Positions 35,451-53,265 of a stretch of 64,000 nucleotides of DNA are shown here, one piece after another. Source of the DNA: an uncultured Clostridia bacterium (lineage in GTDB: Bacteria > Bacillota > Clostridia > TANB77 > CAG-508). The translations under genes were made by a program, and so were the position numbers. The stretch is taken from the NCBI GenBank assembly GCA_944386175.1, contig CALXAB010000001.1, forward strand, positions 47,645-111,644. Direction: 5' to 3'. The stretch's first letter is position 1; each line of letters begins with the position of its first letter. The notes beneath the pieces were generated by a model. The model had not been told where the DNA came from and searched no databases. It saw only the letters and a list, made by a program, of their open reading frames with translations.

Positions 35451-36125
35451 TTAAAATTCCCTTATATCATATCTAAAATATAGTCCATCCATTTTTATTT
35501 TATGAAAATCTTTTATTATATTTTCTTTGACTTTATTAAAATCTTTTCCTACTCTTCTTAATGCAAATACTCTACCTCCTGAAGGATATAGTATATTATT
35601 TTTTGATATTATATGTTCCCCTATAATATCTGTTGTATTTTTTACTTTGTTCATACCTAAAATTGGTTCATCAAAACTACTTCTTTCTACTTCTGGATAT
35701 CCTGCTGAAAATCCATACATTGCTATAGAAAAGCAGTCTTTTTTCCAACAATTATTTATCTTTTCTACATCTTCATAAAAGAAATTTATTATATCTATAA
35801 AAGGTTTATTCAGTAACCCTAATAAAGCTAACCACTCTGGATTACCTGTTCTTGTATTATATTCTAATACATATACTTTTTTATCTTCGGTAACCATTAT
35901 TCCTATATATAAAATATAGTTATATTCCATATTTTCTTTTTTCATACCTCTTATAGTTGGTTCTATTATATCTTTTTTTAATTGTTCTTCTTTTTCTGTG
36001 CTAACTCTTGCATAAGCACATACTCTTAAATTACCTTTTATAACTTCTCCTGTTGTTCTATTAATTCTTCCTTTTTTCTTCTCTATTACTTGTACTTTCA
36101 AATTTAACCTCTCTTTCTCAAGCAT
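35451..36125 (-). pseudogene. purD: Chimeric ORF: the first 48 codons of a large serine recombinase, including the catalytic RVST, fused in frame to the C-terminal ~175 aa of phosphoribosylamine-glycine ligase (PurD)
   Basis: The N-terminus MLEKERLNLKVQVIEKKKGRINRTTGEVIKGNLRVCAYARVSTEKEEQ is identical, apart from one I-to-N substitution, to the start of the intact recombinase at 48681-50573. The remainder (VLEYNTRTGNPE...YGFSAGYP...SGGRVFALRRVG...GLYFRYDIR) aligns with the PurD ATP-grasp C-terminus. Confidence 0.7.
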
Positions 36126-36168
36126 AGAGAATCTTTATGTTTGTATTATATACTAAAATTTTATATTT

Positions 36169-36354
36169 TTAAATACCTATGTGGATTAAATTATATTCTT
36201 TTAAAATATTTTGTTTTAGTTCTAAATATCTTTTCTCTTTAATTAATCCTGCATTATATGTTTTATTTAGAATTGCTATTTTAATGCTACAATTAAAAAT
36301 ATTTTCATTTAGTTTTACATTTTTCGTATTATCAAATTTTACTTCGTACAACAT
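36169..36354 (-). CDS. Small conserved protein of 61 aa encoded immediately upstream of the serine recombinases
   Basis: A strong RBS agaggagga precedes it. It is paralogous to 50617-50802 and, more distantly, to 42882-43058. Confidence 0.5.
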   Translation of the reverse strand: MLYEVKFDNTKNVKLNENIFNCSIKIAILNKTYNAGLIKEKRYLELKQNILKEYNLIHIGI

Positions 36355-36379
36355 AAAAATCCTCCTCTGCTTGAATTAA

Positions 36380-36890
36380 ATTTCAAAAAAGAGCGACAAA
36401 AAAGCCAGCCGGCTAGCTAGACTGACTTCTTTGTCTTACATTTTTTGATAATACAATTATATTATGCTGTTCTATAAAGTTCAATTCCCGTTTTTTTCCC
36501 TTTTTTCTATTTTAATTGATAAAGCGTTGACTTTTTAGTTAGTACACTAAGTAAACTTGTGTAAAAATTTTTTTAATTATTTTTTACTTTATTATTTTTG
36601 AGTTCACTTAGTGTACTTTTTGTTTTGTATTTAAAAACCTTAGTTCACTTAGTGAATAAAAAACTAACTTTCAAGTACACTTGGTGAACTTTTTCTTAAA
36701 AATCACTTATTTTTCGTTCATTTAGTGAACTTTTGCACTCTCAAAGGCATTTTTTAGCTGTTCATTCGGTGAATTTCCGCATCAAATTTGCTTAAAATTT
36801 TTGTTCTTTTGTTAACTCTTGAAGGCTTGTCCTTCAATGTGTATAGGCGATGTGTGCACACTCGCTTTCCTGCCTTTAGTATTGTTTTTT
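36380..36890. repeat. Array of parS-like 15-bp palindromes (GTTCAC-N3-GTGAAC and variants, 6 sites) plus a conserved hairpin
   Basis: Sites TAGTACACTAAGTAAAC, GTTCACTTAGTGTAC, GTTCACTTAGTGAAT, GTACACTTGGTGAAC, GTTCATTTAGTGAAC and GTTCATTCGGTGAAT. The region is about 95% identical to 50940-51350. Confidence 0.8.
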
Positions 36891-36891
36891 A

Positions 36892-38670
36892 TCATATATT
36901 AATTACTTTTTGTTGACTCATATATAATTTATAATAATTTCCTTTTATGCTCATTAATTCTTCATGAGTTCCATATTCTACTATTTCTTTATCTTTAATA
37001 AAAAATATTCTGTCACTATCCACTATTGTAGATAATCTATGAGCAATCGTTATTACAGTTTTATTTTTAACCATTTCTTTTGTTAGATTTTGTAGCATTT
37101 TTTCTGTTTTTACATCAATCTTACTTGTTGCTTCATCGAAGATTAATATTTTAGGGTTATTAATAATTGTTCTTATATAGCATAATACCTGTTTTTCTCC
37201 ATCTGATAGATTTTTTCCATTACTACTTAATTTTGTATTGTATCCATCTTCTAAACTCATTATCCAATTATGTACATTCAATCTTTTACATATTTCTATT
37301 ACTTTATCATCAGTTATATTTTCATTTCCATATTTTAAATTTTTCATAATGCTTGTACTAAATAAGTAATTTTCTTGTTGCATAATAGCTATCTGTTTTC
37401 TAAGTCTATTTAGTTTTATATTTCTAACATCTTCTCCATCAATAAAAATATTTCCTGAATCTATATCATAAAATCTTCCAATTAGATTTGTAATAGTGGT
37501 TTTTCCACTTCCTGTACTACCTACAATAGCTACTTTTTCTTGCGGTTTTACTTTAAAAGATATATTATTTAAAACTTTATTATTTTCTATATAAGAAAAA
37601 CTAACATTTTTAAATTCTATTTCACCTTTTATTTTGATGTCTTTAGCATCTATTTTATCTTTTATATCTATTTTTTCATCCATTGTTTCAAATATTCTCT
37701 CTAAATATGTAATTGAATTAATAAAATCATCTAATGTTTTAAATAAGTCTTCTATAGGTTGCCAAAAGTTAGATGAATAACTTCCCATAGCAACAATAGT
37801 TCCAACTGATGTAGTTGGATATAAAAACATCGCTCCTACAAAATATATTGTTGCAGTTACCCAATGTGACATTGTTTGTACACTACACCATCCAATATTG
37901 CCAAATTTTATTTGTTTGCAACTTGCATCTTTCCAACTTCTACTTAAATCATTAAATATATCTTCATTCTTTTCTTCTCTATTAAATGCTTGGGTTATTT
38001 GCATTCCTTTTAATGTTTCTAATAGATATGCATTAGTATTAGAATTTTTATTATTAATTAGTAATTTATTTTTTCTCTTTATCTTAGCTGTTGAAGCAAA
38101 TATAAAAATAAGTATTACTATTCCAACTAATGCGATTAATGTTAGTTTCACACTTGTTAAAAACATAAATATCAGAATAATAAGCATATTAAATATGTTT
38201 AAAAATGTTGTTACTAATTTATCTGTAATTAGAGTAGAAACATCTTCTGCATATTCTGTTAGTCTAACTAGTATTTTTCCATGAGGTCTTGTGTCGTAAT
38301 AATTAACTGATAAATACTGAATATGTGAAAACAAATCATTTTTTATATCTTCTACAATATTTTGATTTACTTTAGCCAACATTTTTTTATACACTTTAGT
38401 TACAATAATAGACAATAATACTAAAAATAATGCTAATAATATTATGATAAACAATTTTTCATAATCGCTATTAGGAATAACATCATCGATTACATATTGT
38501 AGTATTTTAGTGATAAATAAAGTAGCTATAATAGATATACAATTTAAAATAAATATAATAATCAATTTTGATTTATATTTTTTTATGTATGTTAAACCTC
38601 TTTTATAATTAGAAAGACTGAATGAAGTATTTTTTTCATCTTGGTCATATTTGTTTACACTCATATACAT
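36892..38670 (-). CDS. ABC exporter, fused permease-ATPase subunit (type I exporter half-transporter)
   Basis: Six TM helices followed by an NBD with Walker A GSTGSGKTT, signature LSDGEKQ and Walker B ILIFDEA. Confidence 0.85.
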   Translation of the reverse strand: MYMSVNKYDQDEKNTSFSLSNYKRGLTYIKKYKSKLIIIFILNCISIIATLFITKILQYVIDDVIPNSDYEKLFIIILLALFLVLLSIIVTKVYKKMLAKVNQNIVEDIKNDLFSHIQYLSVNYYDTRPHGKILVRLTEYAEDVSTLITDKLVTTFLNIFNMLIILIFMFLTSVKLTLIALVGIVILIFIFASTAKIKRKNKLLINNKNSNTNAYLLETLKGMQITQAFNREEKNEDIFNDLSRSWKDASCKQIKFGNIGWCSVQTMSHWVTATIYFVGAMFLYPTTSVGTIVAMGSYSSNFWQPIEDLFKTLDDFINSITYLERIFETMDEKIDIKDKIDAKDIKIKGEIEFKNVSFSYIENNKVLNNISFKVKPQEKVAIVGSTGSGKTTITNLIGRFYDIDSGNIFIDGEDVRNIKLNRLRKQIAIMQQENYLFSTSIMKNLKYGNENITDDKVIEICKRLNVHNWIMSLEDGYNTKLSSNGKNLSDGEKQVLCYIRTIINNPKILIFDEATSKIDVKTEKMLQNLTKEMVKNKTVITIAHRLSTIVDSDRIFFIKDKEIVEYGTHEELMSIKGNYYKLYMSQQKVINI

Positions 38671-40379
38671 TCCTCCATATTATTTACTTGAATATCATAA
38701 ATTTCTTTATATTCTCCATTCTTATTCAATAATTCTTCATGTGAACCACTCTCTATGATTTCTCCGTTTTTCATTACAAATATGACATCAGCATTTTTTA
38801 CAGAAAGAATTTTTTGTGCAATTATAATTTTTGTACATCTATATTTCAAATTATTAATATTTTCAGTAACTTCTAATTCAGTTTCAAAATCTAGTGCGGA
38901 AGTTATATCATCTAATATTAATATACTAGGTCTCTTAGCTAATGCTCTTGCCAAAGATAAACGCTGTTTTTCACCTCCTGATAAACTCACTCCATTTTCT
39001 CCTATTATTGTATTAATATCCTCTGGTAAATCAAATACATAATCAGCTTTAGCCAATTTTAAACATTTTTTTATTTCTTCTTCTTTTAAATCTTCATTTC
39101 CAAAACTAACATTATTGGAAATAGTATCAGAAAACAGAAAAGGAGTTTGAGAAACATAACCGATATTTTTTCTTAATGATTTTAATGTATATGTATTTAT
39201 TAAATTATCGTCTATTTCTATCTTTCCACTTGAACATTCTATCAGTCTTAACATCAGTTTTCCAATAGTAGATTTTCCACTCCCTATTTCTCCAATAAAT
39301 GCATAAGTCTTATTGGGCTTTAAATCTAAATTAATATTTTTTATAACTTTCCTATTATTAAGTTTGACATTAACCCCTTTAAAAATAATATTTTCCCAAT
39401 TATTTAATATTAAACTTCCTTTATCTTTTATTTTAGGTTCAGTTTCTAATAATTTTCTTACTTTTGATACAGATACTCTAAATTGTTGCCATTCATTTAT
39501 AAAACCACTTAATTCTATAAACGGTTTTCTTATAGTGCCTATAAAAGAATTAATAATAATAAATTGTCCCATTGTCGTGTAACCTTTTATAACAAATATT
39601 CCCCCAAATAAAGTTAATAATATTTGCATACAATATGATAAAAATGTGACTATATTGTCATAAGAGATATTCATATTTTGTATTTCTAAATTCTTATTTT
39701 TCAAATTTCTATTCTTTACTTTAAAGTTATCTATTTCTTTTTGTTCTGTTGCAAATGTTTTGATTAATCTATTTCCTTCTATATTTTCTTGTATATAATT
39801 ATTTAGGTTTGACAAACTTTCTCTTTGATCTTTATATAATTCCTTTGATTTTTTTATATGTTTTTTAGATATAACTGCAATTATAGGAGTAGGTATTAAA
39901 ATAATTAGTGTTAAAATTGGGTTTATATATAGGCAGTAAATTGTAGTTAAAATACTAGTAGTTAACATGCTTATAGATTGTTTTATCACAAAACACATAT
40001 TATGATGAATAATGCTATTATCTGTTGTTAAAAGCGTGCTTATTTCTCCCAAAGTTTTTTCTTCGTAAAAATCTTGATTTAATTCATTCAATTTTTTATA
40101 ACATTCAACTTTTAACTTATGTGCTAAATTAAATCTAACATGATCCATTATTAATATTCCAAAATAAGTTATCAGCCTACCTATAAAATACATACTAATA
40201 GATATAATAAAAAGGTATGGAATAATAGAAAAATTACTCTCATATATACCTTTATCTATTATTTCTCCTAATAGTATAACTGGTAATATTTTAGAAATTC
40301 CTCCACCTAATATTATCATTAAATTTGAAATCCAATATCTAAAATTATATTCTTTAATAAATTTTAATACCCATCTCAT
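38661..40379 (-). CDS. ABC exporter, fused permease-ATPase subunit (heterodimer partner)
   Basis: Six TM helices followed by an NBD with GEIGSGKST, LSGGEKQRLSLARAL and ILILDD. Confidence 0.85.
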   Translation of the reverse strand: MRWVLKFIKEYNFRYWISNLMIILGGGISKILPVILLGEIIDKGIYESNFSIIPYLFIISISMYFIGRLITYFGILIMDHVRFNLAHKLKVECYKKLNELNQDFYEEKTLGEISTLLTTDNSIIHHNMCFVIKQSISMLTTSILTTIYCLYINPILTLIILIPTPIIAVISKKHIKKSKELYKDQRESLSNLNNYIQENIEGNRLIKTFATEQKEIDNFKVKNRNLKNKNLEIQNMNISYDNIVTFLSYCMQILLTLFGGIFVIKGYTTMGQFIIINSFIGTIRKPFIELSGFINEWQQFRVSVSKVRKLLETEPKIKDKGSLILNNWENIIFKGVNVKLNNRKVIKNINLDLKPNKTYAFIGEIGSGKSTIGKLMLRLIECSSGKIEIDDNLINTYTLKSLRKNIGYVSQTPFLFSDTISNNVSFGNEDLKEEEIKKCLKLAKADYVFDLPEDINTIIGENGVSLSGGEKQRLSLARALAKRPSILILDDITSALDFETELEVTENINNLKYRCTKIIIAQKILSVKNADVIFVMKNGEIIESGSHEELLNKNGEYKEIYDIQVNNMEECI

Positions 40380-40511
40380 TTATATTTTTTCTCCAATATT
40401 TATTATATTTTTATATTACTTTTCATATTCTATCATAATTTTATTTCTTTCTCAATAAAATTATAAAGTTTCAAAATATATTTATCCTTACATTTGCTTA
40501 ATTATGAAAAA

Positions 40512-40586
40512 ATCCGCAATAGAAATAATGTCAAGAGCGAGTGATAATGAGTTTATTTACTCTTGATATTATTTTTATTGCAGATT
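40512..40586. promoter_or_regulatory. Long palindromic operator (24-bp arms, 22-bp spacer) with inward-facing TTGACA boxes and divergent promoters
   Basis: CTCCAATAGAAATAATGTCAAGAG ... CTCTTGACATTATT. On the + strand, TTGATA-N17-TAAATT. A near-identical copy at 57947-58026 has TTGACA-N17-TAAAAT. Confidence 0.6.
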
Positions 40587-40821
40587 AAATTTACCCTGCA
40601 AATGTATGAGGCAAAAAATAAGTATCAGTACATATCTACCGACACTTAAATTTATAAAGATTCTCTATTACTTATTTCATAAATTCTTTCTAGCAATTGA
40701 AATAACTGATAATTTTACATATCTACAATTAAACACAACCTATATATGTCATGCTTATCATAGACACAATCTCAAATTCCCTAGTATTTCAAACACTTCT
40801 ATCAATTTTCTAAAATTTAAT

Positions 40822-41004
40822 TTATGTGTTTCCACTTACCACATCTGCAACTACTTTAACTTTCACATCTGAATTTTGATGTTTTTCTCTTCCATATCTT
40901 CCTTTTTTCTCGAAAGTTATAATCTCTGAAAACATATCAAATTCAAGTATTACCTGTCCTGTTTTAGTTGTAGCACTGCCACACATTCCACATGTGTTGG
41001 TCAT
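40822..41004 (-). CDS. Questionable small ORF (60 aa, MTNTCGMCGSATTK...) inside the conserved transporter leader
   Basis: A paralogous sequence at about 58370-58560 is conserved in translation, but that copy has no start codon. It could be a leader or regulatory RNA rather than a protein. Confidence 0.2.
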   Translation of the reverse strand: MTNTCGMCGSATTKTGQVILEFDMFSEIITFEKKGRYGREKHQNSDVKVKVVADVVSGNT

Positions 41005-42679
41005 CTCTGGTTGCAGTAAGTTTTAAATGTTGTTTATCTCCTGTTGCAGTAAAATTGTCTTTACAATTTATTTCTGTTCCGTTTTTACAAATAAACCTTA
41101 TTGTATATGGATTTATTGTACCATTTTCTAATGTTTCCCCAATTATTACTTTCTCTATTATACATTCAAAAATATCTTTATCAAAATTTTTCATTATTTC
41201 CATATCTTTAAATAAACCTTTAAACTTGTTTAATCTATGTTTAATACTTTCATTTCTGTTTGTGTCTTTTAGTAGGTTTTGTATTTTCTGTTCTACTTTT
41301 AATAGTTCTATGTTTAGCTCATCATATTTTAAAGTATATTGTTCTTTATTTATTCTGCCTTCTAAGTTTAGTTCTAATAGATTATTAAGTTTCTTGTTTA
41401 TTTTCTCTTTGTCTTTTTCTAGCTTATTTACTACTGTTTCTGTAGTATTTTCTTTTAAGACATTTTCTATTTTTTCTAAAAAATCTTCTACTACTTTTTT
41501 ATTGTTGTTACAGAGTATTCTATATCCTTGTACAAAACAATCTTCTAGTATTTCTTCTGGTATTGCTTTACAGTATGGGCATTCTTCTTTTCCATGTTTT
41601 GCTCTTTTGATACATTGCCATACTGCTTTTTCATATTTTCTTTTTGAGTTCCAGTTTCTTCTTGTAAGTAAGCTACCACAAAATCCACAATATAATTTAC
41701 TACTAAAAGCATATTTCTTACTATAGTTATTATTTCTTCTTCCTGTTTCTCTTGTTCCTACTCGTTTTATTCTTATTTCTTGTACTCTATCAAATAACTC
41801 TTTACTAATAATTGGCTCATGATGTTCTTTTATATAATGCTTTTCTGCTTCTCCTAAATTGCTTAATCTTTTATGTGATATTGGATCTATTGTAAATGTT
41901 TTTCCCATTAGCACATCTCCAATATATTTTTCATTTTTTAGTATTCCTCTTATTGTTGATTCGTTCCAATTATCATTACCTTTTGGGGATTTAATGCCTT
42001 TTGCTTTTAGTTCTTTTGCTATTGTACTTGAACCTATTCCGTCTACATATCTTTCAAATATATATTTTATAACTTCTGCTTGTTCCTCATTTATAGTTAT
42101 CTGTTTTGTTATTAAATCATAGTTATAACCGTAACAACCATTATAGCCAATTAACTCTCCCCTGTCTTTCTTCATTTTTAGTCCAAGCAATACATGTGAA
42201 GATATGTTCTCACTTTCTTGTTGTGCCATAGCACTTAATACTGTTAGTAGCATTTCTCCTGTTCCTGATAGAGTATTTAGATTTTCTTCTTCAAATAAAA
42301 CTGCAATGTTCTTTTCTTTTAGCATTCTTACATATTTTAAAGTATCTAATGTGTTTCTAGCAAATCTTGATATGGATTTTGTTAAAATCATATCAAATTT
42401 TCCAGACATTCCATCTGTTATCATTTTCATAAAGTCTGTTCTTTTAAAATCTAATGTGCCACTTATAGATTCATCTGCATATATTCCTGCAAATTGCCAT
42501 TCAGATTTGCTATTGATTTTTTCATCATAATACTTTAATTGTGATTGGTAACTATTTAATTGTTCTTTATTTCCTGTACTAACTCTACAATATGCACATA
42601 CTCTTAATCTTTCTTTGATTGTTGTACCTGTTACTCTGTTAATTCTTCCGTTTGTTTTCTCTATGACTTGAATTTCCAT
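40964..42679 (-). CDS. Large serine recombinase (resolvase domain plus recombinase and zinc-ribbon domains), 571 aa
   Basis: Catalytic RVCAYCRVSTG...YQSQ motif near the N-terminus, a C4 zinc ribbon (CGFCGS...C..C) and a coiled-coil C-terminal region. It is 60-70% identical to the recombinase at 48681-50573. Confidence 0.85.
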   Translation of the reverse strand: MEIQVIEKTNGRINRVTGTTIKERLRVCAYCRVSTGNKEQLNSYQSQLKYYDEKINSKSEWQFAGIYADESISGTLDFKRTDFMKMITDGMSGKFDMILTKSISRFARNTLDTLKYVRMLKEKNIAVLFEEENLNTLSGTGEMLLTVLSAMAQQESENISSHVLLGLKMKKDRGELIGYNGCYGYNYDLITKQITINEEQAEVIKYIFERYVDGIGSSTIAKELKAKGIKSPKGNDNWNESTIRGILKNEKYIGDVLMGKTFTIDPISHKRLSNLGEAEKHYIKEHHEPIISKELFDRVQEIRIKRVGTRETGRRNNNYSKKYAFSSKLYCGFCGSLLTRRNWNSKRKYEKAVWQCIKRAKHGKEECPYCKAIPEEILEDCFVQGYRILCNNNKKVVEDFLEKIENVLKENTTETVVNKLEKDKEKINKKLNNLLELNLEGRINKEQYTLKYDELNIELLKVEQKIQNLLKDTNRNESIKHRLNKFKGLFKDMEIMKNFDKDIFECIIEKVIIGETLENGTINPYTIRFICKNGTEINCKDNFTATGDKQHLKLTATRDDQHMWNVWQCYN

Positions 42680-42699
42680 CTTTCCTCCGTTCCGCCTAG

Positions 42700-42770
42700 A
42701 GATAAAACTTAATAATTTTATTTTATAGAAAAGTGCATTTTAATGCATCTTTTCTATAAAACAAGGTTAA
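42700..42770. promoter_or_regulatory. Perfect 13-bp inverted repeat (TTTTATAGAAAAG / CTTTTCTATAAAA) plus two more hairpins in the leader between the small ORF and the recombinase start
   Basis: Seen directly in the sequence. It is absent from the paralogous module at 50574-50617. Confidence 0.35.
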
Positions 42771-42881
42771 TTTACCTATATTTGCCCGAGCTTTAGCTCG
42801 TGGCATTTGAGCCTAGAAATCTTTGATTTCGTTAAGGCTCAATTATCTTATATCATTTTTTAGATAAAAAGTAAATTGTTC

Positions 42882-43058
42882 TTACAAAAGTTTATAATCT
42901 TTTAAGATTTTTCTTTTTATTTCAATATATTCTGAATCTAGTATTAAGTTTTCTCTAAACAAATTATTTAAAAACAATAATTCCATGCTACAGTCTAGCA
43001 TATTATTATCTTTTAGTTGTTTAGAGTTATCTACTTCTATTTTATAATTATGTAGCAT
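42882..43058 (-). CDS. Small conserved protein of 58 aa upstream of a serine recombinase
   Basis: Start taken at MLHNYKIEVDN. It is colinear with the 61-aa paralogues (ML.E.K.DN.K...N.F.C...Y.E.K..IL.EY.L). Confidence 0.45.
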   Translation of the reverse strand: MLHNYKIEVDNSKQLKDNNMLDCSMELLFLNNLFRENLILDSEYIEIKRKILKDYKLL

Positions 43059-43199
43059 GAAATTGCTCCTTTTCTTTAAATTTGAAAAGAAAAAGAACAA
43101 AGAAACTAGAATCTTTCTAATCCCTTTGCTCTTTCTCTTTCATACTACCATTATATTATCGTGTTTTTATATAGTCAATTCCATTTTTATTCCCTCTTT

Positions 43200-43625
43200 T
43201 CTATTTTTGATATAATTCTAGTATCTAATTTTATAAGTACACTAAGTAAACTAAAAATTGTATAATTTTAAATTGCAGTTCACTTGGTGTACTAGAAAAA
43301 TATAACAAAAGTTCACTAAGTGTATTTGTAAATTTTGTTTTATTTTCACATTCACTTAGTGAACTAAATTCAAAAATATTATTCAATATCAAGTACACTT
43401 GGTGAACTTTTTCCCAAAATAAGTGAATTTTTTTAATTTTTTAATTCACCATTTTTAATTTTGAACGAAGAATAGCGGGTTTGAGCCAGTTCACCGAGTG
43501 AATTTTTACATCATATTTGCATAAAATTTTTGTTTTTTTATTAACTCTTGAAGGCTTGTCCTTCAATATGTATAGGCATTTTGTTAAGAATGCTATCCTG
43601 CCCTCATTTTCAATGAGGTATTTTG
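43200..43625. repeat. parS-like palindrome array (GTTCACTTGGTGTAC, GTTCACTAAGTGTAT, TTCACTTAGTGAAC, GTACACTTGGTGAAC, AGTTCACCGAGTGAAT)
   Basis: Same family as the 36380-36890 array. It ends with ...TTAACTCTTGAAGGCTTGTCCTTCAATATGTATAGGC. Confidence 0.75.
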
Positions 43626-43788
43626 CTCTTAAAATGTACTTATTCTACTTAATTAAATATACTTATCCTTAAATCCTCTTAATCGAAAAACAATGTGCTT
43701 TTAAAAATAAGTCAAGGTTGTGCGATAGCACATTTATTTAAACCTTGACTTGTTTTTATAAAGCACATTATACTTTTCTAAAAGGATT

Positions 43789-45240
43789 TTAACTATTTAT
43801 AAAAAATTGAATTATTGCAAATATTCCCATATCTGAAATTGTTTTTATTGCATCTACATTAGCAATAACTTTATAAGGGTGATGAATTACTAAATCTAAA
43901 TAGTTTTTCATTCCTTCATTATTAAAACATGTCTCCCATGCTCTTGAAATAGTATCGTCATCAATAAGATTTTGTTTATCTATTGATATTTTATTTATAA
44001 TCTTCTCTAATCTCAAGTCCAAATTATTATTTGCAGATTTCCATTTTTCCCATTTTCCTTTGTTTATTAAAAAATAGATGCTTGATTGTTCTAATAATGA
44101 GCGGATTAAAAAGCAATATGATATTGGGTAATTTTTATATAAATTTCCAAATGATAAATGCTGAATTTCATAGCATAGATTTTTAATCCCTTTAGCTCTA
44201 TCATTACTATATTTTAGTTTGCTACAATTAATATTTTTAAATAAAATACTATTGTCTTTTCTTGTTAATCTGATTTTATTAAATGCTATACTTTCATTTA
44301 TTTTATTTTTTACTATTTCACTTTCATTGGCATTATTATGTTTTTCTTCTCTACCATTAGAAAATATCTTCATTTGTTCATTTTTATTTTCTAAATTTTC
44401 ATTTATTTTATCTTTGCTGTCAAACCTTTCACTAACATTATTTTCTATATTGCCATACAAATATTTTTCTATATTAGCATTATTTTTTATTGTGTTACTT
44501 GTAATCCTACCACTTACAATATCTTGAACAATTCGTAATACTTTCTTGTCTAATTCATTTATTGAAGACAATGGCATTAAAACATTGTTATTAAAAGAAA
44601 TATTCAGATATTCTTTACCAACTTTTGAAGAAACAATCTTTTCAAACTTATTTACTGAAAAATTATTGTCAACTCCATCAAATGCTTTTTTACAAAATCC
44701 TTGTAATTGTGAAAATATATTTTTTACTCCCATTTTATCTTCAAATCTTTTTATTGAAGCTGTATCCCATTTTAAAGCTCCTGTATCAGTTGTATGTACA
44801 TTTCTTATATATCCAGCACAATCTTCAAATGAAGTGGCCACATAACAAGGAATTTGAAAATATTCTTCTCCTTGAATTCCTGCACTCATTGCATATATGC
44901 TTCTTATTTGTGTATATGAAAAGTATTTAAAAGATTCTACCAATTTAGGATTTTTTAAGATTTTCATTGCTGTTAATCTTCTATTACCATCCCATGCCAC
45001 AAATTTTTCTTTTTTCTCATCATAAGTGACTGTAACTATTGATTGTGGATACCAACCATTTGTGTAAATATCACTAATTAACTTATGCATTGCCTTCGCT
45101 TCTTTAGAATTTCTCACCAATTGTTGCATTATAAAAAGTTCATCCGCTATCATAATTTGTGTATGTCTTGGATTCTCTGGATTTACTAATATTTTTTCTA
45201 TGTCTATTAGTTGATGTTCTCTCATATATAATTCCCCCAT
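43789..45240 (-). CDS. ParB/Srx-superfamily (DUF262-like, DGNRR motif) protein with a long C-terminal extension
   Basis: LVNPENPR and VAWDGNRRLTAM are the ParB N-terminal-domain boxes. A possible His-Me/HNH-like DLVIHHP lies near the C-terminus. Confidence 0.55.
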   Translation of the reverse strand: MGELYMREHQLIDIEKILVNPENPRHTQIMIADELFIMQQLVRNSKEAKAMHKLISDIYTNGWYPQSIVTVTYDEKKEKFVAWDGNRRLTAMKILKNPKLVESFKYFSYTQIRSIYAMSAGIQGEEYFQIPCYVATSFEDCAGYIRNVHTTDTGALKWDTASIKRFEDKMGVKNIFSQLQGFCKKAFDGVDNNFSVNKFEKIVSSKVGKEYLNISFNNNVLMPLSSINELDKKVLRIVQDIVSGRITSNTIKNNANIEKYLYGNIENNVSERFDSKDKINENLENKNEQMKIFSNGREEKHNNANESEIVKNKINESIAFNKIRLTRKDNSILFKNINCSKLKYSNDRAKGIKNLCYEIQHLSFGNLYKNYPISYCFLIRSLLEQSSIYFLINKGKWEKWKSANNNLDLRLEKIINKISIDKQNLIDDDTISRAWETCFNNEGMKNYLDLVIHHPYKVIANVDAIKTISDMGIFAIIQFFINS

Positions 45241-45294
45241 TTTTTACCTTATAAAGTCTTTCGTAAATCCCTCATCATTCTTAAGTATATTATT

Positions 45295-46812
45295 CTATTT
45301 TTTTGCAATATATTTTTGATTTTTAGTATTTGGTTTATCTGGTATAGTCATTTGCAATTTTCCACTATCTAATAATGGTCTCATGTATTTTAAATAGAAA
45401 TTTCTTCTGTCTTTTAATCCTAAATATGCCATTATTTCTTTTGTTGTTTTTGGTTCTCTACAAAATTCTAATATTTTATCTTGATGGGTATCTTGGTGGA
45501 TATCTTGGTGGGTTGTTGGTCGGTCTTTTATCTCATTTTCAAATCTATCATGTATAAATATTGTTGTAATAAAATAATCTCTTGTTTCATTTGTTTCAAA
45601 CTCTGGTTCTTTTGAGCCATTATTTTTCAATGCTCTTTTTATTTTTGGAATACCTGTATTTCTACCTTCTGTTAATTTTAATTCTTTTAAAAACTCTCCA
45701 ATTCTACGATTTCTATATTTTCTTGCTATCATATTTTTATCTTCAATTGATTTTTCGCTTATTGAACGGTCTGGTCCTGGATAACTTACAATATGAATTC
45801 TATCTTCCATTATTCTTACTTCTACTGGTTCCCTTACATCATATCCTCTATGATAAACTGCATTTACTAATGCTTCTTCTATTGCTTGATATGGATAATT
45901 AAAAAATCTTACAGCCTCCGCTTGTCCATCTATCTTTAAAATTTTTTCCATAATAACAGTATTTTTAATATATGTTAAAGCACTTTTTATCATAGTATCA
46001 ATAGGTCCTTTAAATATTTGCTCTGTCATATCATCACCTTCTGGACCGTTTCTTAAATCTACTACTTCTATTTGTGAATATGGAAAGAATTTTTGTGGCT
46101 CATCATTAAAAAACATTAACCCTACATTTAAAGGTTTCATATATTCTGGTGTTCCATCTACTATTCTCATACTTTTACATAAATCTATAAAACTCATTGT
46201 TTCGGATTCTTTTAATAGTTCACTCTTTATCTCATATAAGTAATTTTGAATTAGTGGTAGTTTTAAATCTTGAATTTGTGCCTCATGATTCATTCTATCA
46301 TCGAATGGTATTACTCTTGCCATATCATATAATTCTTTTTGCTCTACTTCTGTAGCTTTTACTGTACTGGACATTTTTCTAATATAATATGAATATCCTT
46401 TTGAAAAATCTTTATCTAGTGTTGTTGGACATTTGTATGGTCTATTCTGACCACCAAAACACCATACTACTAGTATATTTTTACCTTTATATTGAGCAAC
46501 ATCTACAATTGGTGTATAGGCTGGCTGTATCATTTTACATTTTGTTAGCAATTCTTTTTGAATTTTATCTATTTCAGATAATTGTAGCCCTTCAAAATCT
46601 TTCTTAGGTCTACCATTTGCTTCTTCAACACCTATTAAAATATATCCTCCACCCCAGTTATCTATATCATTTGCAAAAGCACAAATTGTATGTAATATTG
46701 GTTCTGGATTCCAGTTTCTCTTTAATTCTAATCTTGCATTTTCTACAATGTTTTCATTTAGTATATTTTCTATACTTGTAGGTAATCTCATCTTCTCACC
46801 TTTCTTTTTCAA
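45295..46812 (-). CDS. COG2865-type Schlafen-like (AlbA_2) ATP-binding / HTH protein
   Basis: An N-terminal AlbA_2/Schlafen-like DNA-binding domain (LELKRNWNPEPILHTICAFANDIDNWGGGYILIGVEE), a central HATPase_c_4-like region and a C-terminal HTH. Confidence 0.55.
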   Translation of the reverse strand: MKKKGEKMRLPTSIENILNENIVENARLELKRNWNPEPILHTICAFANDIDNWGGGYILIGVEEANGRPKKDFEGLQLSEIDKIQKELLTKCKMIQPAYTPIVDVAQYKGKNILVVWCFGGQNRPYKCPTTLDKDFSKGYSYYIRKMSSTVKATEVEQKELYDMARVIPFDDRMNHEAQIQDLKLPLIQNYLYEIKSELLKESETMSFIDLCKSMRIVDGTPEYMKPLNVGLMFFNDEPQKFFPYSQIEVVDLRNGPEGDDMTEQIFKGPIDTMIKSALTYIKNTVIMEKILKIDGQAEAVRFFNYPYQAIEEALVNAVYHRGYDVREPVEVRIMEDRIHIVSYPGPDRSISEKSIEDKNMIARKYRNRRIGEFLKELKLTEGRNTGIPKIKRALKNNGSKEPEFETNETRDYFITTIFIHDRFENEIKDRPTTHQDIHQDTHQDKILEFCREPKTTKEIMAYLGLKDRRNFYLKYMRPLLDSGKLQMTIPDKPNTKNQKYIAKK

Positions 46813-46842
46813 ATGTCCGTTTTTTCGGACTTATAAAATTTT

Positions 46843-47259
46843 TTATTTCATATAATCTCTAATTTTAAATAATAACTCATCATCTAATATCTCTGTTGAG
46901 GCAAAATTATTTAAAGTATTATTATCTTCCCAATCTATATCAAATAAATTTATCACTTTATCATATCTTGGGAAAGCATGATAATGAACAAATGGATCAT
47001 GCATCATCATAATCATATAATTAAACTTTATTGCTCCAAACCTGTCTCTACATAGTTCTTCATACCATTTTATTACTTTTGGAAATTCAGCACCTTCATC
47101 TTGTAACATTCCACTTACATTTTGTGTTTCTCTTTTCAATAAAATAACTACATCTCCTAATGTTGTTTGTTTTTGCCTAACACAAACAATCCAATACTTA
47201 AACTCTTTAATACAAAGTTCCTCTGGTCTAAATTTTTTCATAAATTCTAAATTGTCCAT
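46843..47259 (-). CDS. HIT-like small hydrolase (tentative)
   Basis: 138 aa with DPFVHYHAFP, which resembles the histidine-triad HxHxH motif. Confidence 0.3.
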   Translation of the reverse strand: MDNLEFMKKFRPEELCIKEFKYWIVCVRQKQTTLGDVVILLKRETQNVSGMLQDEGAEFPKVIKWYEELCRDRFGAIKFNYMIMMMHDPFVHYHAFPRYDKVINLFDIDWEDNNTLNNFASTEILDDELLFKIRDYMK

Positions 47260-47282
47260 TGATAAGACCTCCTCTTACATTT

Positions 47283-47920
47283 TTATTTTTTAAACATATC
47301 ATTTAAATTATGTGATATTAATTTTAAATTATCTATATTTTCCCCTTCAATAACATAAGGCGTACAATGTTGTATTTGCAATTCAAATACTCTTTCTCTT
47401 GGTTCAATCTTAAACATATTTAAAAATAAGCACCTTATTGCATGATAATGTGAGAATATTCCTATTGTTATATCATCATTAAAATCTAACGAATCAAGAA
47501 ATCTTTTACATCTTATACTAACATCAGTATAGTTTTCTCCTTTTGGTGCTTTTTGTACGAAATCTGTTCTAAATTTATTAAATTTTTCATCTGTAATATA
47601 TTCATTATATTCATTAGAAGCTAATAAATCCTTCTTTTCCTTCAAATATTCCTAAACATCTTTCTCTTAAATCTTTACTTAAATTTAGTTCATATCCTGG
47701 TTTAGCTAATTTTGCTGTTTGTATTGCTCTCATTAAATCTGAAGAATAAACTTTTTTAATACTTTTAATAATATCATTTTTTGCTAAAATACTTGCTTGA
47801 TTCTTTCCTTATTCTGTTAAACTCGTCAATTCATTATCTAAAGTTCCTGTGTATAAAGCTGTTCCTTCATCATTTATCACGTTTGCCATTGTTTGTCCAT
47901 GTCTAATTATAACTATTCTC
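47283..47920 (-). pseudogene. Histidine phosphatase (phosphoglycerate-mutase-like) gene broken by frameshifts
   Basis: The N-terminus MRIVIIRHGQTMANV (RHG catalytic motif) at 47920 runs into a stop after about 37 codons. Downstream pieces in other frames end with the 120-aa ORF. Confidence 0.55.
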
Positions 47921-47921
47921 A

Positions 47922-48506
47922 TTAATTGTTACCTTCCTTTTTATTCTTTATTGTTTCAATATATTCTTTAACATATGCGTTCATATCTCTATCAAATAGT
48001 TCTTTTGAATATTCTAATCTTAATAGTTCTTCTCTTAAGATTGGCAAATATACTTCTATAATTTCATCTAACGCCTCTGGTTCTTCTTCAATACATCTTT
48101 TCCATCTATTTTTTCCGATATAAGCAATTTTGTCTGCATCTCTTACAATTTTTCCTTCAACTGTTGGAGGAATACATTTTCTCTTATGATTTACTACTGC
48201 TGAATAACATTGTTCTATTATTTCATTACTATAACTTAACTTTTCCATTTCTTCTTTTAGAATTCTTCCGCTTTCTTCTTCATGTCCTTTATCTGTAACA
48301 GACCTTCCAACATCATGCCAATATGCAGCTATAATACATATTTCTTTATTAGCTGGTATCTCTTCTAATAATTCTTTTACATAGTTTACGACATCAATAG
48401 TATGACCTATAAAATGTAGAGGATCATTTTCACATACTTTCATTTTTTCTATAGCTATATCAATTAATTTTTTATTTTTATTATATATTTCTTCGTAAAT
48501 ATCCAT
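47922..48506 (-). CDS. HD-domain phosphohydrolase
   Basis: H...HD signature (IGHTIDVV...AAYWHDVGR). 194 aa. Confidence 0.65.
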   Translation of the reverse strand: MDIYEEIYNKNKKLIDIAIEKMKVCENDPLHFIGHTIDVVNYVKELLEEIPANKEICIIAAYWHDVGRSVTDKGHEEESGRILKEEMEKLSYSNEIIEQCYSAVVNHKRKCIPPTVEGKIVRDADKIAYIGKNRWKRCIEEEPEALDEIIEVYLPILREELLRLEYSKELFDRDMNAYVKEYIETIKNKKEGNN

Positions 48507-48680
48507 TCTATCTAAATTCTCCCTATCTCTATTCTTTTATATTTTGACCATATTTTACCATAAAACAATAAAAAAATAAAGCATATAACAAATTAAATTA
48601 TTACATACTTTACCTTTCAAGTTTTATCTCCAAACATTTTTATTTTTCGTTGACAAATCGTTGACATTATCAACAAGAAA

Positions 48681-50573
48681 TTATACTACTCCGCACACCA
48701 TGTCAACTTCTATCGTTACTTTAATTTTATGATTTTCTGTTCTTTTAACCTTATTTTTGCCTTTTCTATCAAAACTAATAAAATCTTCAAAAGCAGTAAA
48801 TTGGGCTATTGTATCGAATCTTTCAGACATAGCACCGAGCAACACTCCACATGGCTCACACCCAGTCTGTAGATAGTTTTGGCTTACCTCGTATGATGAC
48901 TGTTGCAAACTACCTTGATTTTTATCTTTTTGACATTTGATTTCGTTTCCAGATTTTAGGATAAATGTTATTACTCTTGGATTTACATCTCCATTTTGTT
49001 CTTTTTCTCCTATTATAACTTTTTCTATCATTAATTCAAAAACATCTTTATCAAATGTTGGCATTATTTCATCATCTTTAAATAGACTTTTAAACTTGTT
49101 TAATCCTTGATTTAAACTAATTGAATCTTCTAACTCTAGTTGTAAATGTTCTTGCTCTTTTTCTATTTTGTTTATCTTGTTTTGTAATTTTGCCTTTTTA
49201 TCTTTTAATGTTTCAAGTGTTATTGTTCCATTCAAGTTTAAATCAATTAACTTGTCTATCTTTTCTTTTAAAGTTTGTTTTTCTTCTTCTAATTTTTTAA
49301 TAGAACTTTCATTACTTTCTTCTTGTATGATTTCTTCCATTTGTTTTAAGAATGTTTTGATTAGTTTTTTGTTATTATTACATAAAAGTTTATAACTTTC
49401 TGTAAATGCTTCTTCTATAATGTTTTCTTTCATTGCTTTACAATATGGGCAATTTTCTTTTCCATGTTTTACAAATTCCATACAATGCCATACCGTAATA
49501 CTATTTTTTGTTCCAGAGTGCCAGTTTCTTCTTGTTAATAAACTTCCACAAAAACCACAATATATTCTACTACTAAAAGGATATTTTCTGCTAAAGTTTC
49601 CTTTTCTTCTTCCAGAGCCTCGTACTCCTCCTCGCTTTTGTAATATTTCTTGTGCTTGATTAAACATTCTTTCTGAAATAATTGGTTCATGATGTTCTTG
49701 TATGTAATACTGATTTTCTTCTCCCATATTGACTACTCTTCTATGTGAGATTGGATCTGTTGTATATGTTTTTCCTTGTAAGACATCTCCTTTGTATTTT
49801 TCGTTTTTCAAAATACCTCTTATAGTTGAGTCATGCCATTGTTTCTTTCCTGTTGGTGTTTTATATTTCATAGCAGTTAGTTCTTTTGCAATTGTTGTGC
49901 AACCTACTCCTTGACAGTATCTTTCAAAGATATATCTTACTATTTCTGCTTCTTGATAATTTACTGATATTTTCTTTGTTTCTTTATCATATACATATCC
50001 TAAACATCCATTATATCCAATTAATTCTCCTCTTTTTTGTTTCATCTGTAATCCTAGTTTTACATGAGAAGATATATTTTCGCTCTCCTGCTGTGCCATT
50101 GCACTCATTACTGTTAGCATTACTTCGCCAGATAATTCTAAAGTATTGATGTTTTCTTCTTCAAAATAAATAGTGATTCCTTTTTCCTTTAATAATCTTA
50201 CATACTTTAAAGTATCTACTGTATTTCTTCCAAATCTTGATATTGATTTTGTAATTATCATGTCAAATTTGTTTTCTGTTGCATCTTGCATCATTCTCAT
50301 AAAGTTATCTCTTTTATAGTCAAGTGTTCCTGTTATCCCTTCATCTGCATAAATCCCTACATAAGTCCAATCACTTCTTGATTTTATTTTTTCTTCATAA
50401 TATTTTAGCTGAGAATTATAACTATTTATTTGTTCTTCTTTTTCTGTACTAACTCTTGCATAGGCACATACTCTTAAATTGCCTTTTATAACTTCTCCTG
50501 TTGTTCTATTAATTCTTCCTTTTTTCTTCTCTATTACTTGTACTTTCAAAATTAACCTCTCTTTCTCAAGCAT
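48681..50573 (-). CDS. Large serine recombinase, 630 aa
   Basis: Catalytic RVCAYARVSTEKEEQ...YNSQ motif, a zinc-ribbon CGFCGS...CPYC and a coiled-coil. It is paralogous to 40964-42679. Confidence 0.85.
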   Translation of the reverse strand: MLEKERLILKVQVIEKKKGRINRTTGEVIKGNLRVCAYARVSTEKEEQINSYNSQLKYYEEKIKSRSDWTYVGIYADEGITGTLDYKRDNFMRMMQDATENKFDMIITKSISRFGRNTVDTLKYVRLLKEKGITIYFEEENINTLELSGEVMLTVMSAMAQQESENISSHVKLGLQMKQKRGELIGYNGCLGYVYDKETKKISVNYQEAEIVRYIFERYCQGVGCTTIAKELTAMKYKTPTGKKQWHDSTIRGILKNEKYKGDVLQGKTYTTDPISHRRVVNMGEENQYYIQEHHEPIISERMFNQAQEILQKRGGVRGSGRRKGNFSRKYPFSSRIYCGFCGSLLTRRNWHSGTKNSITVWHCMEFVKHGKENCPYCKAMKENIIEEAFTESYKLLCNNNKKLIKTFLKQMEEIIQEESNESSIKKLEEEKQTLKEKIDKLIDLNLNGTITLETLKDKKAKLQNKINKIEKEQEHLQLELEDSISLNQGLNKFKSLFKDDEIMPTFDKDVFELMIEKVIIGEKEQNGDVNPRVITFILKSGNEIKCQKDKNQGSLQQSSYEVSQNYLQTGCEPCGVLLGAMSERFDTIAQFTAFEDFISFDRKGKNKVKRTENHKIKVTIEVDMVCGVV

Positions 50574-50616
50574 AGAGAATCTTTATGTTTGTATTATATA
50601 TTAAAATCTTATATTT

Positions 50617-50802
50617 TTAAATACCTATATGAGTTAAATCATATTCTTTTAAAATATTTTGTTTTAGTTCTAAATATCTTTCCTCTTTAATTAGTCCTGC
50701 ATTATATGTTTTATTTAGAATTGCTATTTTAATGCTACAATTAAAAATATTTTCATTTAGTTTTACATTTTTCGTATTATCAAATTTTACTTCGTACAAC
50801 AT
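50617..50802 (-). CDS. Small conserved protein of 61 aa upstream of a serine recombinase
   Basis: About 95% identical to 36169-36354. Start at MLYEVKFDN. The upstream extension in the ORF track is not supported. Confidence 0.5.
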   Translation of the reverse strand: MLYEVKFDNTKNVKLNENIFNCSIKIAILNKTYNAGLIKEERYLELKQNILKEYDLTHIGI

Positions 50803-50939
50803 AAAAATTCTCCCTTGCTTAAATAAAATTTCAAAAAAGAGCAATAGAAAAAGCCAGTCGGCTAGCTTCGACTGACTTCTTTGTCTGACATTTTTTGATA
50901 ATACGATTATATTATGATGTTCTATAAAGTTCAATTCCC

Positions 50940-51350
50940 GTTTTTTTCCCTTTTTTCTATTTTAATTGATAAAGTGTTGATTTTTTAGTTAGTACACTAA
51001 GTGAACTTGTGTAAAAATTTTTTTAATTATTTTTTACTTTATTATTTTTGAGTTCACTCGGTGTACTTAGTTTTTTATTATATCAATTTTTAGTACACTT
51101 AGTGAACTAATTATAAATTATTTCATAAAATTTAGTACACTTGGTGAACTTTTTCTTAAAAATTACTTATCTTTCGTTCATTTAGTGAACTTTCACACTC
51201 TAAAAGAGATTTTTTAGTCATTCATTCGGTGAATTTTTGCATCAAATTTGCTTAAAATTTTTGTTCTTTTATTAACTCTTGAAAGCTTGACCTTCAATGT
51301 GTATATGCGTTGCGTGATGCACGCTATCCTGCCTTTAGTGTTCACTTTAT
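50940..51350. repeat. parS-like palindrome array (the full copy, contiguous with the intact recombinase module)
   Basis: About 95% identical to 36380-36890 over roughly 0.9 kb when the small ORF and the recombinase 5' end are included. Confidence 0.8.
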
Positions 51351-51355
51351 ATCCT

Positions 51356-53209: not shown

Positions 53210-53265
53210 ATTTTGCTCCCATTTTCATATATTCATTTAATTATTCTATGTATGTAGTTATTAGA

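What the first reader, a model, noticed from the sequence alone, without database searches (positions are those of the whole stretch)
35990..51350. About 0.9-kb near-identical direct repeats (35990-36900 and 50440-51350) bracket a 13.5-kb segment
Both copies contain the recombinase 5' end, the 61-aa small ORF, a conserved hairpin and the palindrome array, at about 95% identity. One copy is truncated at recombinase codon 48. The bracketed segment holds the ABC exporter operon, the second LSR module, the defence-like cargo and the intact recombinase. This looks like tandem or nested integration of related elements into the same hotspot, followed by partial deletion. Repeats this long can also mediate RecA-dependent excision or amplification of the whole block.
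Basis: seen in the sequence. Interest (0 to 1): 0.5.

Follow-up and report, generated by a model that had tools for sequence, protein, structure and literature searches.

The report
Tandem serine-recombinase islands share start modules
The two 0.9-kb repeats are the conserved control region and gene start of two related serine-recombinase mobile islands stacked head to tail, one cut short by a deletion; this is a real but fairly ordinary piece of mobile-element architecture.

Summary
The repeat is real. Copy A is 35982-36885 and copy B is 50430-51342. Identity is 95% over the recombinase start, small ORF and leader (544 nt), 85% over the palindrome array, and 91% overall. Two other metagenome assemblies carry both copies on single contigs, so it is not an assembly duplication.

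The copies are the upstream modules of two related elements that encode a large serine recombinase (LSR). In related genomes this LSR family integrates into the 3' end of rumA, a 23S rRNA U5-methyltransferase gene. Its attachment site (CATGTGGA...GTGCTA) lies inside the 3' end of the recombinase gene. This family is already described for streptococcal elements (PMC4701971).

The window holds three head-to-tail units, delimited by three such sites at 58537, 48853 and 40994. Copy B belongs to unit X and copy A to unit Z.

Unit Z's recombinase is cut after codon 48 and fused in frame to the C-terminal half of a purD-like gene. No att-like motif sits at the junction, so this is an illegitimate deletion.

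One low-coverage contig from another sample joins B's upstream flank to A's downstream flank through a single switch inside the small ORF. That is the predicted homologous-recombination deletion, or an assembly chimera.

Novelty is low to moderate.

The parts
35982..36885 (-). Repeat copy A: upstream module of unit Z. It holds two boundary hairpins, a six-palindrome array, a promoter, a leader terminator-like hairpin, a 61-aa ORF, and LSR codons 1-48.
50430..51342 (-). Repeat copy B: upstream module of unit X, with the same parts as copy A, continuing into the intact LSR1.
35451..36125 (-). Fusion ORF of 224 aa (216 aa from the TTG start at 36101). LSR residues 1-48 are fused in frame to the C-terminal 176 residues of a PurD-like ATP-grasp protein. 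The junction is at 35982|35981.
   Evidence: Pfam GARS_A positions 132-193 plus GARS_C. tblastn. Junction compared with LSR1 and with the whole purD-like gene of L100. The identical product occurs on at least 10 contigs.
36542..36774 (.). Palindrome array A: six sites of type GTTCACnnnGTGAAC, with centres 32-60 nt apart.
   Evidence: 45 matches against 3.3 expected. The palindromes are the invariant blocks in the four-copy alignment.
50992..51234 (.). Palindrome array B: six sites.
36403..36484 (-). Promoter-like TTGAAC-17-TATAAT (36484-36456) followed by a terminator-like hairpin with a U-run (36420-36403), upstream of the small ORF. The copy B equivalents are at 50934-50906 and 50869-50850.
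   Evidence: The hairpin is conserved in 44 sequences with no covariation, because it hardly varies.
36169..36354 (-). 61-aa small ORF, copy A. Copy B is at 50617-50802 (95% aa identity). A diverged 72-aa version in module C is at 42882-43100. No family match was found, and a role as directionality factor or regulator is only inferred.
48681..50573 (-). LSR1, an intact large serine recombinase with Resolvase, Recombinase and Zn_ribbon_recom domains. Its likely start is the TTG at 50549.
48830..48853 (-). att-like site at the LSR1 3' end, marking the junction of unit X and unit Y. The sequence is CATGTG GA GTGTTGCTCGGTGCTA. The right arm ('tail1') encodes HVECCSVLCLKDSIQ* in the RumA frame and 56 further LSR1 residues in the LSR frame.
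40971..40994 (-). att-like site at the LSR2 3' end, marking the junction of unit Y and unit Z. The right arm is 'tail2' (HVECVAVLQLKQDR*), followed by a leader of about 0.6 kb (40970-40380).
58514..58537 (-). Orphan att-like site at the start of unit X. It has tail2 plus a leader (58513-57834). Only about 11 nt of an LSR 3' end remain on its left.
48847..58530 (-). Unit X (about 9.7 kb). Order: tail2 and leader, SnoaL-like, APH, GNAT, Sel1, GNAT, AbiEi/AbiEii, a 617-aa membrane protein, module B, LSR1.
40988..48846 (-). Unit Y (about 7.9 kb). Order: tail1, HD protein, histidine-phosphatase fragment, a 138-aa ORF, Schlafen/AlbA_2-HATPase protein, PD-Lambda-5_A-like protein, module C (43644-42680), LSR2 (42679-40964).
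35982..40987 (-). Unit Z (about 5.0 kb, truncated). Order: tail2 and leader, two ABC exporter genes (40379-36892), module A, LSR codons 1-48.

Best explanation
The two repeats are the conserved upstream modules of two related integrative elements. Each module holds boundary hairpins, a palindrome array, a promoter, a leader hairpin, a 61-aa ORF and the first codons of the recombinase gene.

**The element family.** The recombinase is a large serine recombinase (LSR). Its family targets the 3' end of rumA, a TRAM/U5 rRNA methyltransferase gene. Its attachment site lies inside the 3' end of the recombinase gene. An integrated element therefore reads: replacement rumA end ('tail'), then cargo, then module, then LSR, then att.

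**The array in the window.** Three such units lie head to tail:
- Unit X: LSR1 type, carries copy B.
- Unit Y: LSR2 type, carries a diverged module.
- Unit Z: LSR1 type, carries copy A.

**The truncation.** An illegitimate deletion removed unit Z's recombinase from codon 49 onward. It also removed the right-hand att site and the host DNA up to the middle of a purD-like gene. This left an in-frame fusion.

**Consequences of the repeat.** Because X and Z are close relatives in direct orientation, their modules are substrates for homologous recombination. That means sequence exchange between the copies and loss of the roughly 14.4 kb between them.

**What is shown and what is inferred.**
- Shown: the anatomy, the att sites, rumA targeting in relatives, the deletion junction, and independent assemblies of both copies.
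- Inferred: how the units stacked, which may be by use of a junction that mimics attB; the activity of the recombinases; and that contig L095 is a true deletion variant.
For: **Repeat and module anatomy:**

**How widespread the module is.** The same LSR with its small ORF and array occurs in more than 45 species-level genomes of gut Clostridia. Homology to the window starts sharply at 51333-51349. It ends at about 48845 or runs on through the tail.

**The att site.**
- The junction sequences share CATGTGGA followed by a conserved right arm of about 24 nt with variable sequence beyond it.
- Exactly three such sites occur in the window, against 0 expected.
- In 13 related loci the left arm is the 3' end of a TRAM/U5-methyltransferase gene.

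**A clean single insertion.** In the complete genome locus L055, one 7,267-nt element sits between a rumA gene joined to a tail and an LSR joined to the native rumA end.

**The tails restore rumA.** All right arms encode RumA-like C-termini (HVECxxxLxLK*) in the rumA frame.

**Match to the literature.** PMC4701971 describes single serine integrases that target rumA. Their att site lies inside the integrase gene, and integration causes a reciprocal exchange of the two 3' ends with a change of reading frame.

**The truncation.** Pfam finds GARS_A and GARS_C in the fusion ORF. A related locus, L100, has the whole purD-like gene. The junction GAACAA|TTAAAA carries no att-like motif.

**Decay is common in these arrays:**

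**Independent contigs carry both copies:**

**Recombinant contig.** L095 is B-type at 125 diagnostic sites. It then switches once, within a 115-nt stretch identical in A and B (A 36361-36246, inside the small ORF). From there it is A-type and continues into purD-C.

**Shared polymorphisms.** A and B copies from different samples share alleles in the central part of the repeat.
Against: - **No rumA gene in the window**. The array is not seen at its canonical target here. Its left end is a decayed junction and its right end has been deleted.
- **Canonical LSRs recombine only attP with attB.** How units stack is therefore not explained by textbook behaviour.
- **L095 is weak on its own.** It is a 5-kb, roughly 4x-coverage metagenome contig. 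Assemblers can cross a repeat of this kind wrongly.
- **The mosaic alleles may be artefacts.** The patterns could come from bubble-merging during assembly.
- **Homology to the streptococcal rumA integrases was not tested.** The best phage hit, at 46% identity, is an LSR next to mef(A)/msr(D), not one at a rum junction.
Confidence: 0.8

Rival explanations
1. In-situ segmental duplication: copy A arose by duplicating copy B, or the reverse, within this chromosome. On this view the two copies did not arrive with two separate elements.
For: Over the 544-nt proximal part, A is closer to the same-species B copies (94-97%) than to any other genome (93% or less).
Against: - The array halves are only 85% identical, with a diverged patch and an indel.
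- Each copy sits in the canonical place of a complete unit, with its own tail, leader and different cargo.
- The high proximal identity is patchy and varies between samples. That fits exchange between the copies better than a recent duplication.
Confidence: 0.1
2. Codon 48 is a site-specific junction. On this view the recombinase gene carries an attachment site in its 5' end, integration splits the gene, and the fusion to purD is an att junction.
For: The fusion is in frame and lies just after the catalytic-serine motif. This was my first hypothesis (note).
Against: - No purD fragment lies near any of about 80 related LSR loci.
- The family's junctions all map to the 3' end of the gene.
- The sequence at codon 48 has no similarity to the att core.
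- Other decayed copies break at many different codons.
Confidence: 0.03
3. Assembly artefact: a single module was duplicated or misplaced by the assembler.
For: Many contigs from other samples break inside or next to the module. This shows that assemblers struggle with it.
Against: - Two other assemblies span both copies on one contig with the same flanks.
- The copies differ at more than 60 diagnostic positions that are reproduced across samples.
Confidence: 0.02
4. The window arrangement is derived from an L095-like ancestor (617-aa gene, module, fusion). On this view a circle carrying the 14.4-kb block entered by homologous recombination, and the window does not represent the parent of L095.
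For: The reaction is reversible in principle, and L095 exists.
Against: L095's module is a mosaic: a B-type array joined to an A-type proximal part. That requires both parental copies to have existed first. The full arrangement is the one seen in most samples.
Confidence: 0.05

Closest known systems
rumA-targeting single serine integrases of streptococcal ICEs and related elements (Ambroset et al. 2016, PMC4701971; vanG elements in rumA, PMC4120198)
   Same: - One large serine recombinase per element.
- The att site lies inside the 3' end of the integrase gene.
- The target is the 3' end of rumA.
- Integration swaps the C-terminal coding ends of rumA and the integrase, with a change of reading frame.
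   Different: - The units here are 5-10 kb, and no conjugation or relaxase gene was found by Pfam.
- They carry a palindrome array and a 61-aa ORF upstream of the integrase.
- They are stacked in arrays that alternate between two integrase types.
- The window copy is no longer next to rumA.
- Direct sequence relatedness to the streptococcal integrases was not tested.
Tandem accretion of integrative elements at one att site (streptococcal ICE/IME/CIME arrays, reviewed in PMC5704250; ssrA islands of Dehalococcoides with serine recombinases, PMC3146451)
   Same: Several related islands sit head to tail, separated by repeated copies of the target gene's 3' end. Decay and deletion of the internal recombinases is frequent.
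   Different: The repeated att here lies inside the recombinase genes. The long repeats in question are the elements' own regulatory modules, not the att duplications. I retrieved those two papers by search but did not read them in detail.
SCC elements with Ccr recombinases (tandem SCC arrays at rlmH/orfX)
   Same: These are large serine recombinases that insert cargo islands into the 3' end of an rRNA methyltransferase gene. A usable site is regenerated, so arrays form. This description is from my own knowledge.
   Different: LSR1 and LSR2 score 128-133 bits against the CcrB and CcrC models, whose cut-off is 900. They are not Ccr proteins. The target gene is different, and each unit has one recombinase.

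Membership tests
rumA-targeting single serine integrase elements | Large serine recombinase with Resolvase, Recombinase and zinc-ribbon domains | tested here: met
   Pfam on LSR1 and LSR2.
rumA-targeting single serine integrase elements | Attachment site located inside the 3' end of the integrase gene | tested here: met
   Homology among more than 40 loci breaks at LSR codon ~575, at a shared CATGTGGA core followed by varied right arms.
rumA-targeting single serine integrase elements | Left junction lies in the 3' end of rumA (a 23S rRNA U5-methyltransferase gene) | tested here: inconclusive
   Met in 13 related loci, including the single insertion in L055. Not met in the window itself, which holds no rumA. 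There the left end is a decayed LSR junction.
rumA-targeting single serine integrase elements | Reciprocal exchange of the 3' coding ends of rumA and the integrase, in different reading frames | tested here: met
   Every right arm encodes HVECxxxLxLK* in the rumA frame. In another frame it encodes the LSR C-terminus.
rumA-targeting single serine integrase elements | Sequence clustering with the streptococcal rumA integrases | not tested
   No reference sequence of that clade was retrieved. The best phage hit (46% identity) is an LSR beside mef(A)/msr(D).
Integrative conjugative or mobilizable element | Conjugation module, or a relaxase/oriT | tested here: not met
   Pfam on all ORFs of units X, Y and Z shows no relaxase, coupling protein or VirB4. 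An oriT cannot be excluded.
Integron-like cassette array | One recombinase with an adjacent attI site, and promoterless cassettes each ending in an attC site | tested here: not met
   Each unit has its own recombinase. Only three att-like sites occur. Cargo genes are tightly packed with no repeated intergenic site.
SCC / Ccr recombinases | Score above the NCBIfam equivalog cut-off | tested here: not met
   128-133 bits against a cut-off of 900.
Prophage | Phage structural or replication genes, or close relatives in viral collections | tested here: not met
   No phage domains were found in the cargo. The only IMG/VR hit is 45% identical.

The most novel reading that the evidence does not exclude
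The arrays may be built by two cooperating or parasitic element types. LSR1-type units always carry 'tail2' and are the ones found joined to rumA. LSR2a-type units carry 'tail1' and are found directly downstream of LSR1 genes in at least 10 species. They could specifically target the junction created by the first type.

The palindrome array and small ORF occupy the position where a third LSR type has an HTH_ParB gene. They could be a previously undescribed control or partition device for the excised circles. Together these features would make a self-extending cargo and defence platform in small-genome gut Clostridia.
Probability: 0.15. Interest if true: 0.6.

Novelty: new member of a known kind. 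Interest (0 to 1): 0.3.

Why it matters
This finding explains a confusing stretch of the genome: repeats, a half recombinase fused to half a biosynthetic gene, and scattered defence genes. All of it is the product of one known process, the stacking and decay of serine-recombinase islands.

It also gives practical material:
- defined att sequences and natural attP and attB candidates for a widespread family of gut-Clostridia recombinases;
- a natural test case for how long direct repeats between stacked elements drive loss of cargo. Here that cargo is an ABC exporter, a PD-Lambda-5-like gene and a Schlafen-type gene.

It is not a new kind of system.

Tried and rejected
- **Split-gene hypothesis (attP at LSR codon 48).** Rejected. 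There is no purD fragment near any related LSR, no att motif at the junction, and all family junctions lie at the gene's 3' end.
- **Integron-like cassette array.** Rejected.
- **LSR2 as a frameshifted pseudogene.** Rejected. The LSR2a-type gene of L007 ends in the same frame.
- **Rfam scan of 35-59 kb.** Only two chance miRNA-model hits, far below their gathering scores.
- **JGI metagenome scan for the fusion junction.** No match.
- **IMG/VR scan with LSR1.** No close relative.
- **Phage and plasmid tblastn.** Best hits were 46-47% identical. The phi-SsuZKB4_rum hit is an internal LSR beside mef(A)/msr(D), and the record's ends gave no rum junction, so nothing was inferred from it.
- **PDB sequence search with the 483-aa protein.** Nothing.
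- **Look-up of the 630-aa LSR1.** Not on record, because gene callers use the TTG start.
- **Covariation test of the leader hairpin.** Uninformative, because the hairpin hardly varies.
- **Search for the reciprocal product.** No contig was seen with the ABC exporter, an A-type array and a full LSR1.


Full report
**1. The observation**

A repeat search and a pairwise alignment confirm two direct copies.
- A three-way alignment puts the low-coordinate limit at A 35982 / B 50430. This is the last base of codon 48 of the recombinase reading frame.
- The high-coordinate limit is about A 36885 / B 51342.
- Identity is 95.1% over the 544 nt nearest the recombinase. It is 85.1% over the 366-nt palindrome array, which has a diverged patch and a 10-nt indel. 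It is 90.8% overall.
- The palindrome motif occurs 45 times in the window against 3.3 expected. The matches cluster in four arrays: 20109-20208, 36542-36774, 43237-43503 and 50992-51234.

All genes in the region are on the minus strand.

**2. Anatomy of one module, read on the minus strand**

- It starts with a sharply defined boundary carrying two hairpins. The first varies in sequence but keeps its GCnn...nnGC stem in the copies compared. The second is invariant.
- Next come six palindromes with centres 32-60 nt apart.
- Then a near-consensus promoter (TTGAAC-17-TATAAT) and a 9-bp hairpin with a U-run.
- Then a 61-aa ORF with no family match.
- Then a second promoter-like site and the recombinase start.

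LSR1 (48681-50573) and LSR2 (40964-42679) are large serine recombinases and share 58% aa identity. A third, diverged module (43644-42680) precedes LSR2.

**3. The truncated copy**

ORF 35451-36125 joins LSR residues 1-48 in frame to a protein that matches GARS_A from profile position 132 onward, plus GARS_C. That is the C-terminal half of a PurD-like ATP-grasp enzyme.

Homologues are few. One related contig, L100, carries the whole gene, although frameshifted. It sits in a syntenic cluster with HisS-like, PanC-like, HisZ, HisG and HisIE genes.

The three sequences at the junction are:
- LSR1: ...GAAGAACAA|ATAAAT
- Fusion: ...GAAGAACAA|TTAAAAAAAGAT
- L100: ...ATGAAAAAG|TTAAGAAAAGAT

There is at most a few bases of A-rich microhomology and nothing like the family's att core. 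The simplest reading is an illegitimate deletion that ran from LSR codon 49 to the middle of the purD-like gene.

The identical fusion protein is found on at least 10 contigs from several samples. The deletion therefore looks widespread in this population.

**4. The elements and where they recombine**

A scan of one genome per species found about 80 loci. More than 45 of them have an LSR 83-94% identical to LSR1, nearly always with the small ORF upstream.

Homology to the window's module B and LSR1 begins at 51333-51349 in locus after locus. It ends in two classes: at about 48845, or further on at 48685-48531.

Lining up the sequences at that point shows the following:
- an invariant left arm ending in CATGTGGA;
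- a right arm with a conserved pattern (RTGTnnnCnGTGCTAnnnnTAAA);
- unrelated DNA beyond the right arm.

The window has exactly three such sites: at 48853, at 40994, and an orphan at 58537.

In 13 loci the left arm is not a recombinase. It is the end of a gene reading ...VDMFPxTxHVE. In L055 this gene has TRAM and tRNA(U5)-methyltransferase domains, so it is rumA/rlmD.

L055 comes from a complete chromosome and shows a clean single insertion of 7,267 nt. The order is rumA joined to an element-borne end (HVECCALLELKNCQ*), then cargo, then the LSR, then the native end (HVECVAILCLK*).

Every right arm examined encodes a RumA-like C-terminus in the rumA frame. This holds for the element-borne 'tail1' and 'tail2' and for many species-specific ends that look native. 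In the LSR1 frame, the same DNA adds 54-56 residues to the recombinase.

This is the arrangement published for streptococcal elements that use a single serine integrase to enter rumA. There the att site is inside the integrase gene and the two 3' ends are exchanged with a frame change (PMC4701971).

I cannot place the crossover more precisely than the shared core CATGTGGA(R)TG. A GA crossover, as I recall for TnpX and TndX, is possible but untested.

**5. Reading the window with that key**

- **Unit X (58530 to 48847).** Tail2 and a 0.7-kb leader, then SnoaL-like, APH, two GNATs, Sel1, AbiEi/AbiEii and a 617-aa membrane protein, then module B and LSR1.
- **Unit Y (48846 to 40988).** Tail1, then an HD protein, a phosphatase fragment, a 138-aa ORF, a Schlafen/AlbA_2-HATPase protein and a PD-Lambda-5_A-like protein, then module C and LSR2.
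- **Unit Z (40987 to 35982).** Tail2 and leader, then two ABC exporter genes, then module A and the truncated LSR.

To the left of the orphan site, the window keeps only about 11 nt of an LSR 3' end. Two other samples keep about 240 nt. No rumA is present in the window. The array is decayed at both ends.

**6. Is it real, and does it recombine?**

Two contigs from other samples each hold both copies with the same flanks: ERZ2641816 NODE_1181 and ERZ2916285 NODE_561. Many shorter contigs end in the module, as expected for a true repeat.

Contig L095 comes from sample ERZ24773253. It is 4,994 nt at about 4x coverage, and it runs as follows:
- AbiE genes and the 617-aa gene;
- a B-type array, matching B at 125 diagnostic sites;
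- a single switch inside a 115-nt stretch that is identical in A and B (A 36361-36246, within the small ORF);
- A-type sequence continuing into the LSR-PurD fusion.

That is the product expected from homologous recombination between the copies, with loss of about 14.4 kb. Because its module is a mosaic of both parents, it must be derived from them, not ancestral.

It could also be an assembly chimera, and I could not check reads.

A and B copies from different samples share polymorphisms in the central part of the repeat. This fits gene conversion, but assembly bubble-merging could produce it too. No reciprocal product was seen.

**7. Comparison with known systems, and novelty**

The elements match the defining architecture of rumA-targeting serine-integrase elements. 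They differ in four ways:
- they are small and have no detectable transfer genes;
- they carry the palindrome array and small ORF;
- they stack in arrays;
- here they have been separated from rumA.

They are not Ccr recombinases, not integron-like, and not phage-like by the available evidence. Tandem accretion and decay of integrative elements is well known (papers found).

I rate this a new member of a known kind. The finding itself, the pair of repeats, is an expected by-product of stacking two close relatives.

**8. What remains open**

- **How the units stack.** Textbook LSRs recombine only attP with attB.
- **Why the two types alternate.** In at least 10 species, LSR1 genes are followed by tail1 and then by an LSR2a-type module. 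rumA is always joined to a tail2-like arm.
- **What the palindromes bind.** A third LSR type has a 246-aa HTH_ParB gene in the position where these types have the array.

One simple explanation for the alternation is that adjacent units of the same type share kilobases of direct repeat and are quickly lost. L095 suggests this is happening here.

Noticed in passing
window 20108-20349: A fourth, partial module holds the two boundary hairpins plus three palindromes and is 86% identical to copy B. It lies directly in front of a metallophosphoesterase gene (19155-19991). The same layout, half an array followed by cargo, occurs in L001, L018 and other loci. The array can therefore be split by cargo after its third palindrome.
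   Followed up: partly
window 58514-58537 and L091/L092 1-300: Strains differ to the left of the orphan att site. Two samples keep about 240 nt of an LSR 3' end of a third type. The window and two other samples keep only about 11 nt, followed by a 529-aa membrane protein and ABC/FtsX genes.
   Followed up: partly
loci L001-L035 versus window 40964-50573: The two unit types alternate. LSR1-type genes are followed by tail1 and, 1-5.7 kb further on, by an LSR2a-type module in at least 10 species. LSR2a-type genes are followed by tail2 and its leader. rumA is always joined to a tail2-like arm and never to tail1.
   Followed up: partly
L045, L049-L062 (for example L055 8999-9739): Loci with the third LSR type have no palindrome array. 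They always have a 246-aa HTH_ParB-domain gene just upstream of the small ORF. The array and this gene look like alternatives at the same position.
   Followed up: partly
window ~58046-58155: The leader of unit X has an extra insertion of about 110 nt relative to the leader of unit Z. It contains inverted repeats (CGGACGAAAA...TTTTCGTCCG) and may be a small mobile insertion.
   Followed up: no
window 43789-46812: The 483-aa protein has no Pfam or PDB match but matches PD-Lambda-5_A in PADLOC (E 8e-43). Its neighbour is a Schlafen/AlbA_2-HATPase_c_4 protein. Together with AbiEi/AbiEii (53266-54701) and a second AbiEii (21768-22589), this shows the cargo is rich in defence genes.
   Followed up: partly
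window 26400-35981 and L100: An unusual gene cluster holds two HisS paralogues, HisZ, HisG, HisIE, a CntK_N-GNAT fusion, a VanY-type peptidase and the PurD-like remnant. It is syntenic in L100, where PanC-like and HisS-like genes precede a whole PurD-like gene. It looks like a histidine-derived small-molecule pathway that lost its ATP-grasp enzyme through the deletion.
   Followed up: no
window 23204-23755: A 183-aa serine-hydrolase gene recurs at 79-89% identity within 10 kb of LSR modules in about 20 other species. This suggests that single genes move between these islands.
   Followed up: no
window 40822-41004: A 60-aa ORF overlaps the end of LSR2. It is the tail2 sequence read in the frame that LSR1-type genes would use. 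LSR2a-type genes read the att core in a different frame and stop 8-10 codons later. The same DNA is thus read in up to three frames, depending on which gene sits to its left.
   Followed up: yes
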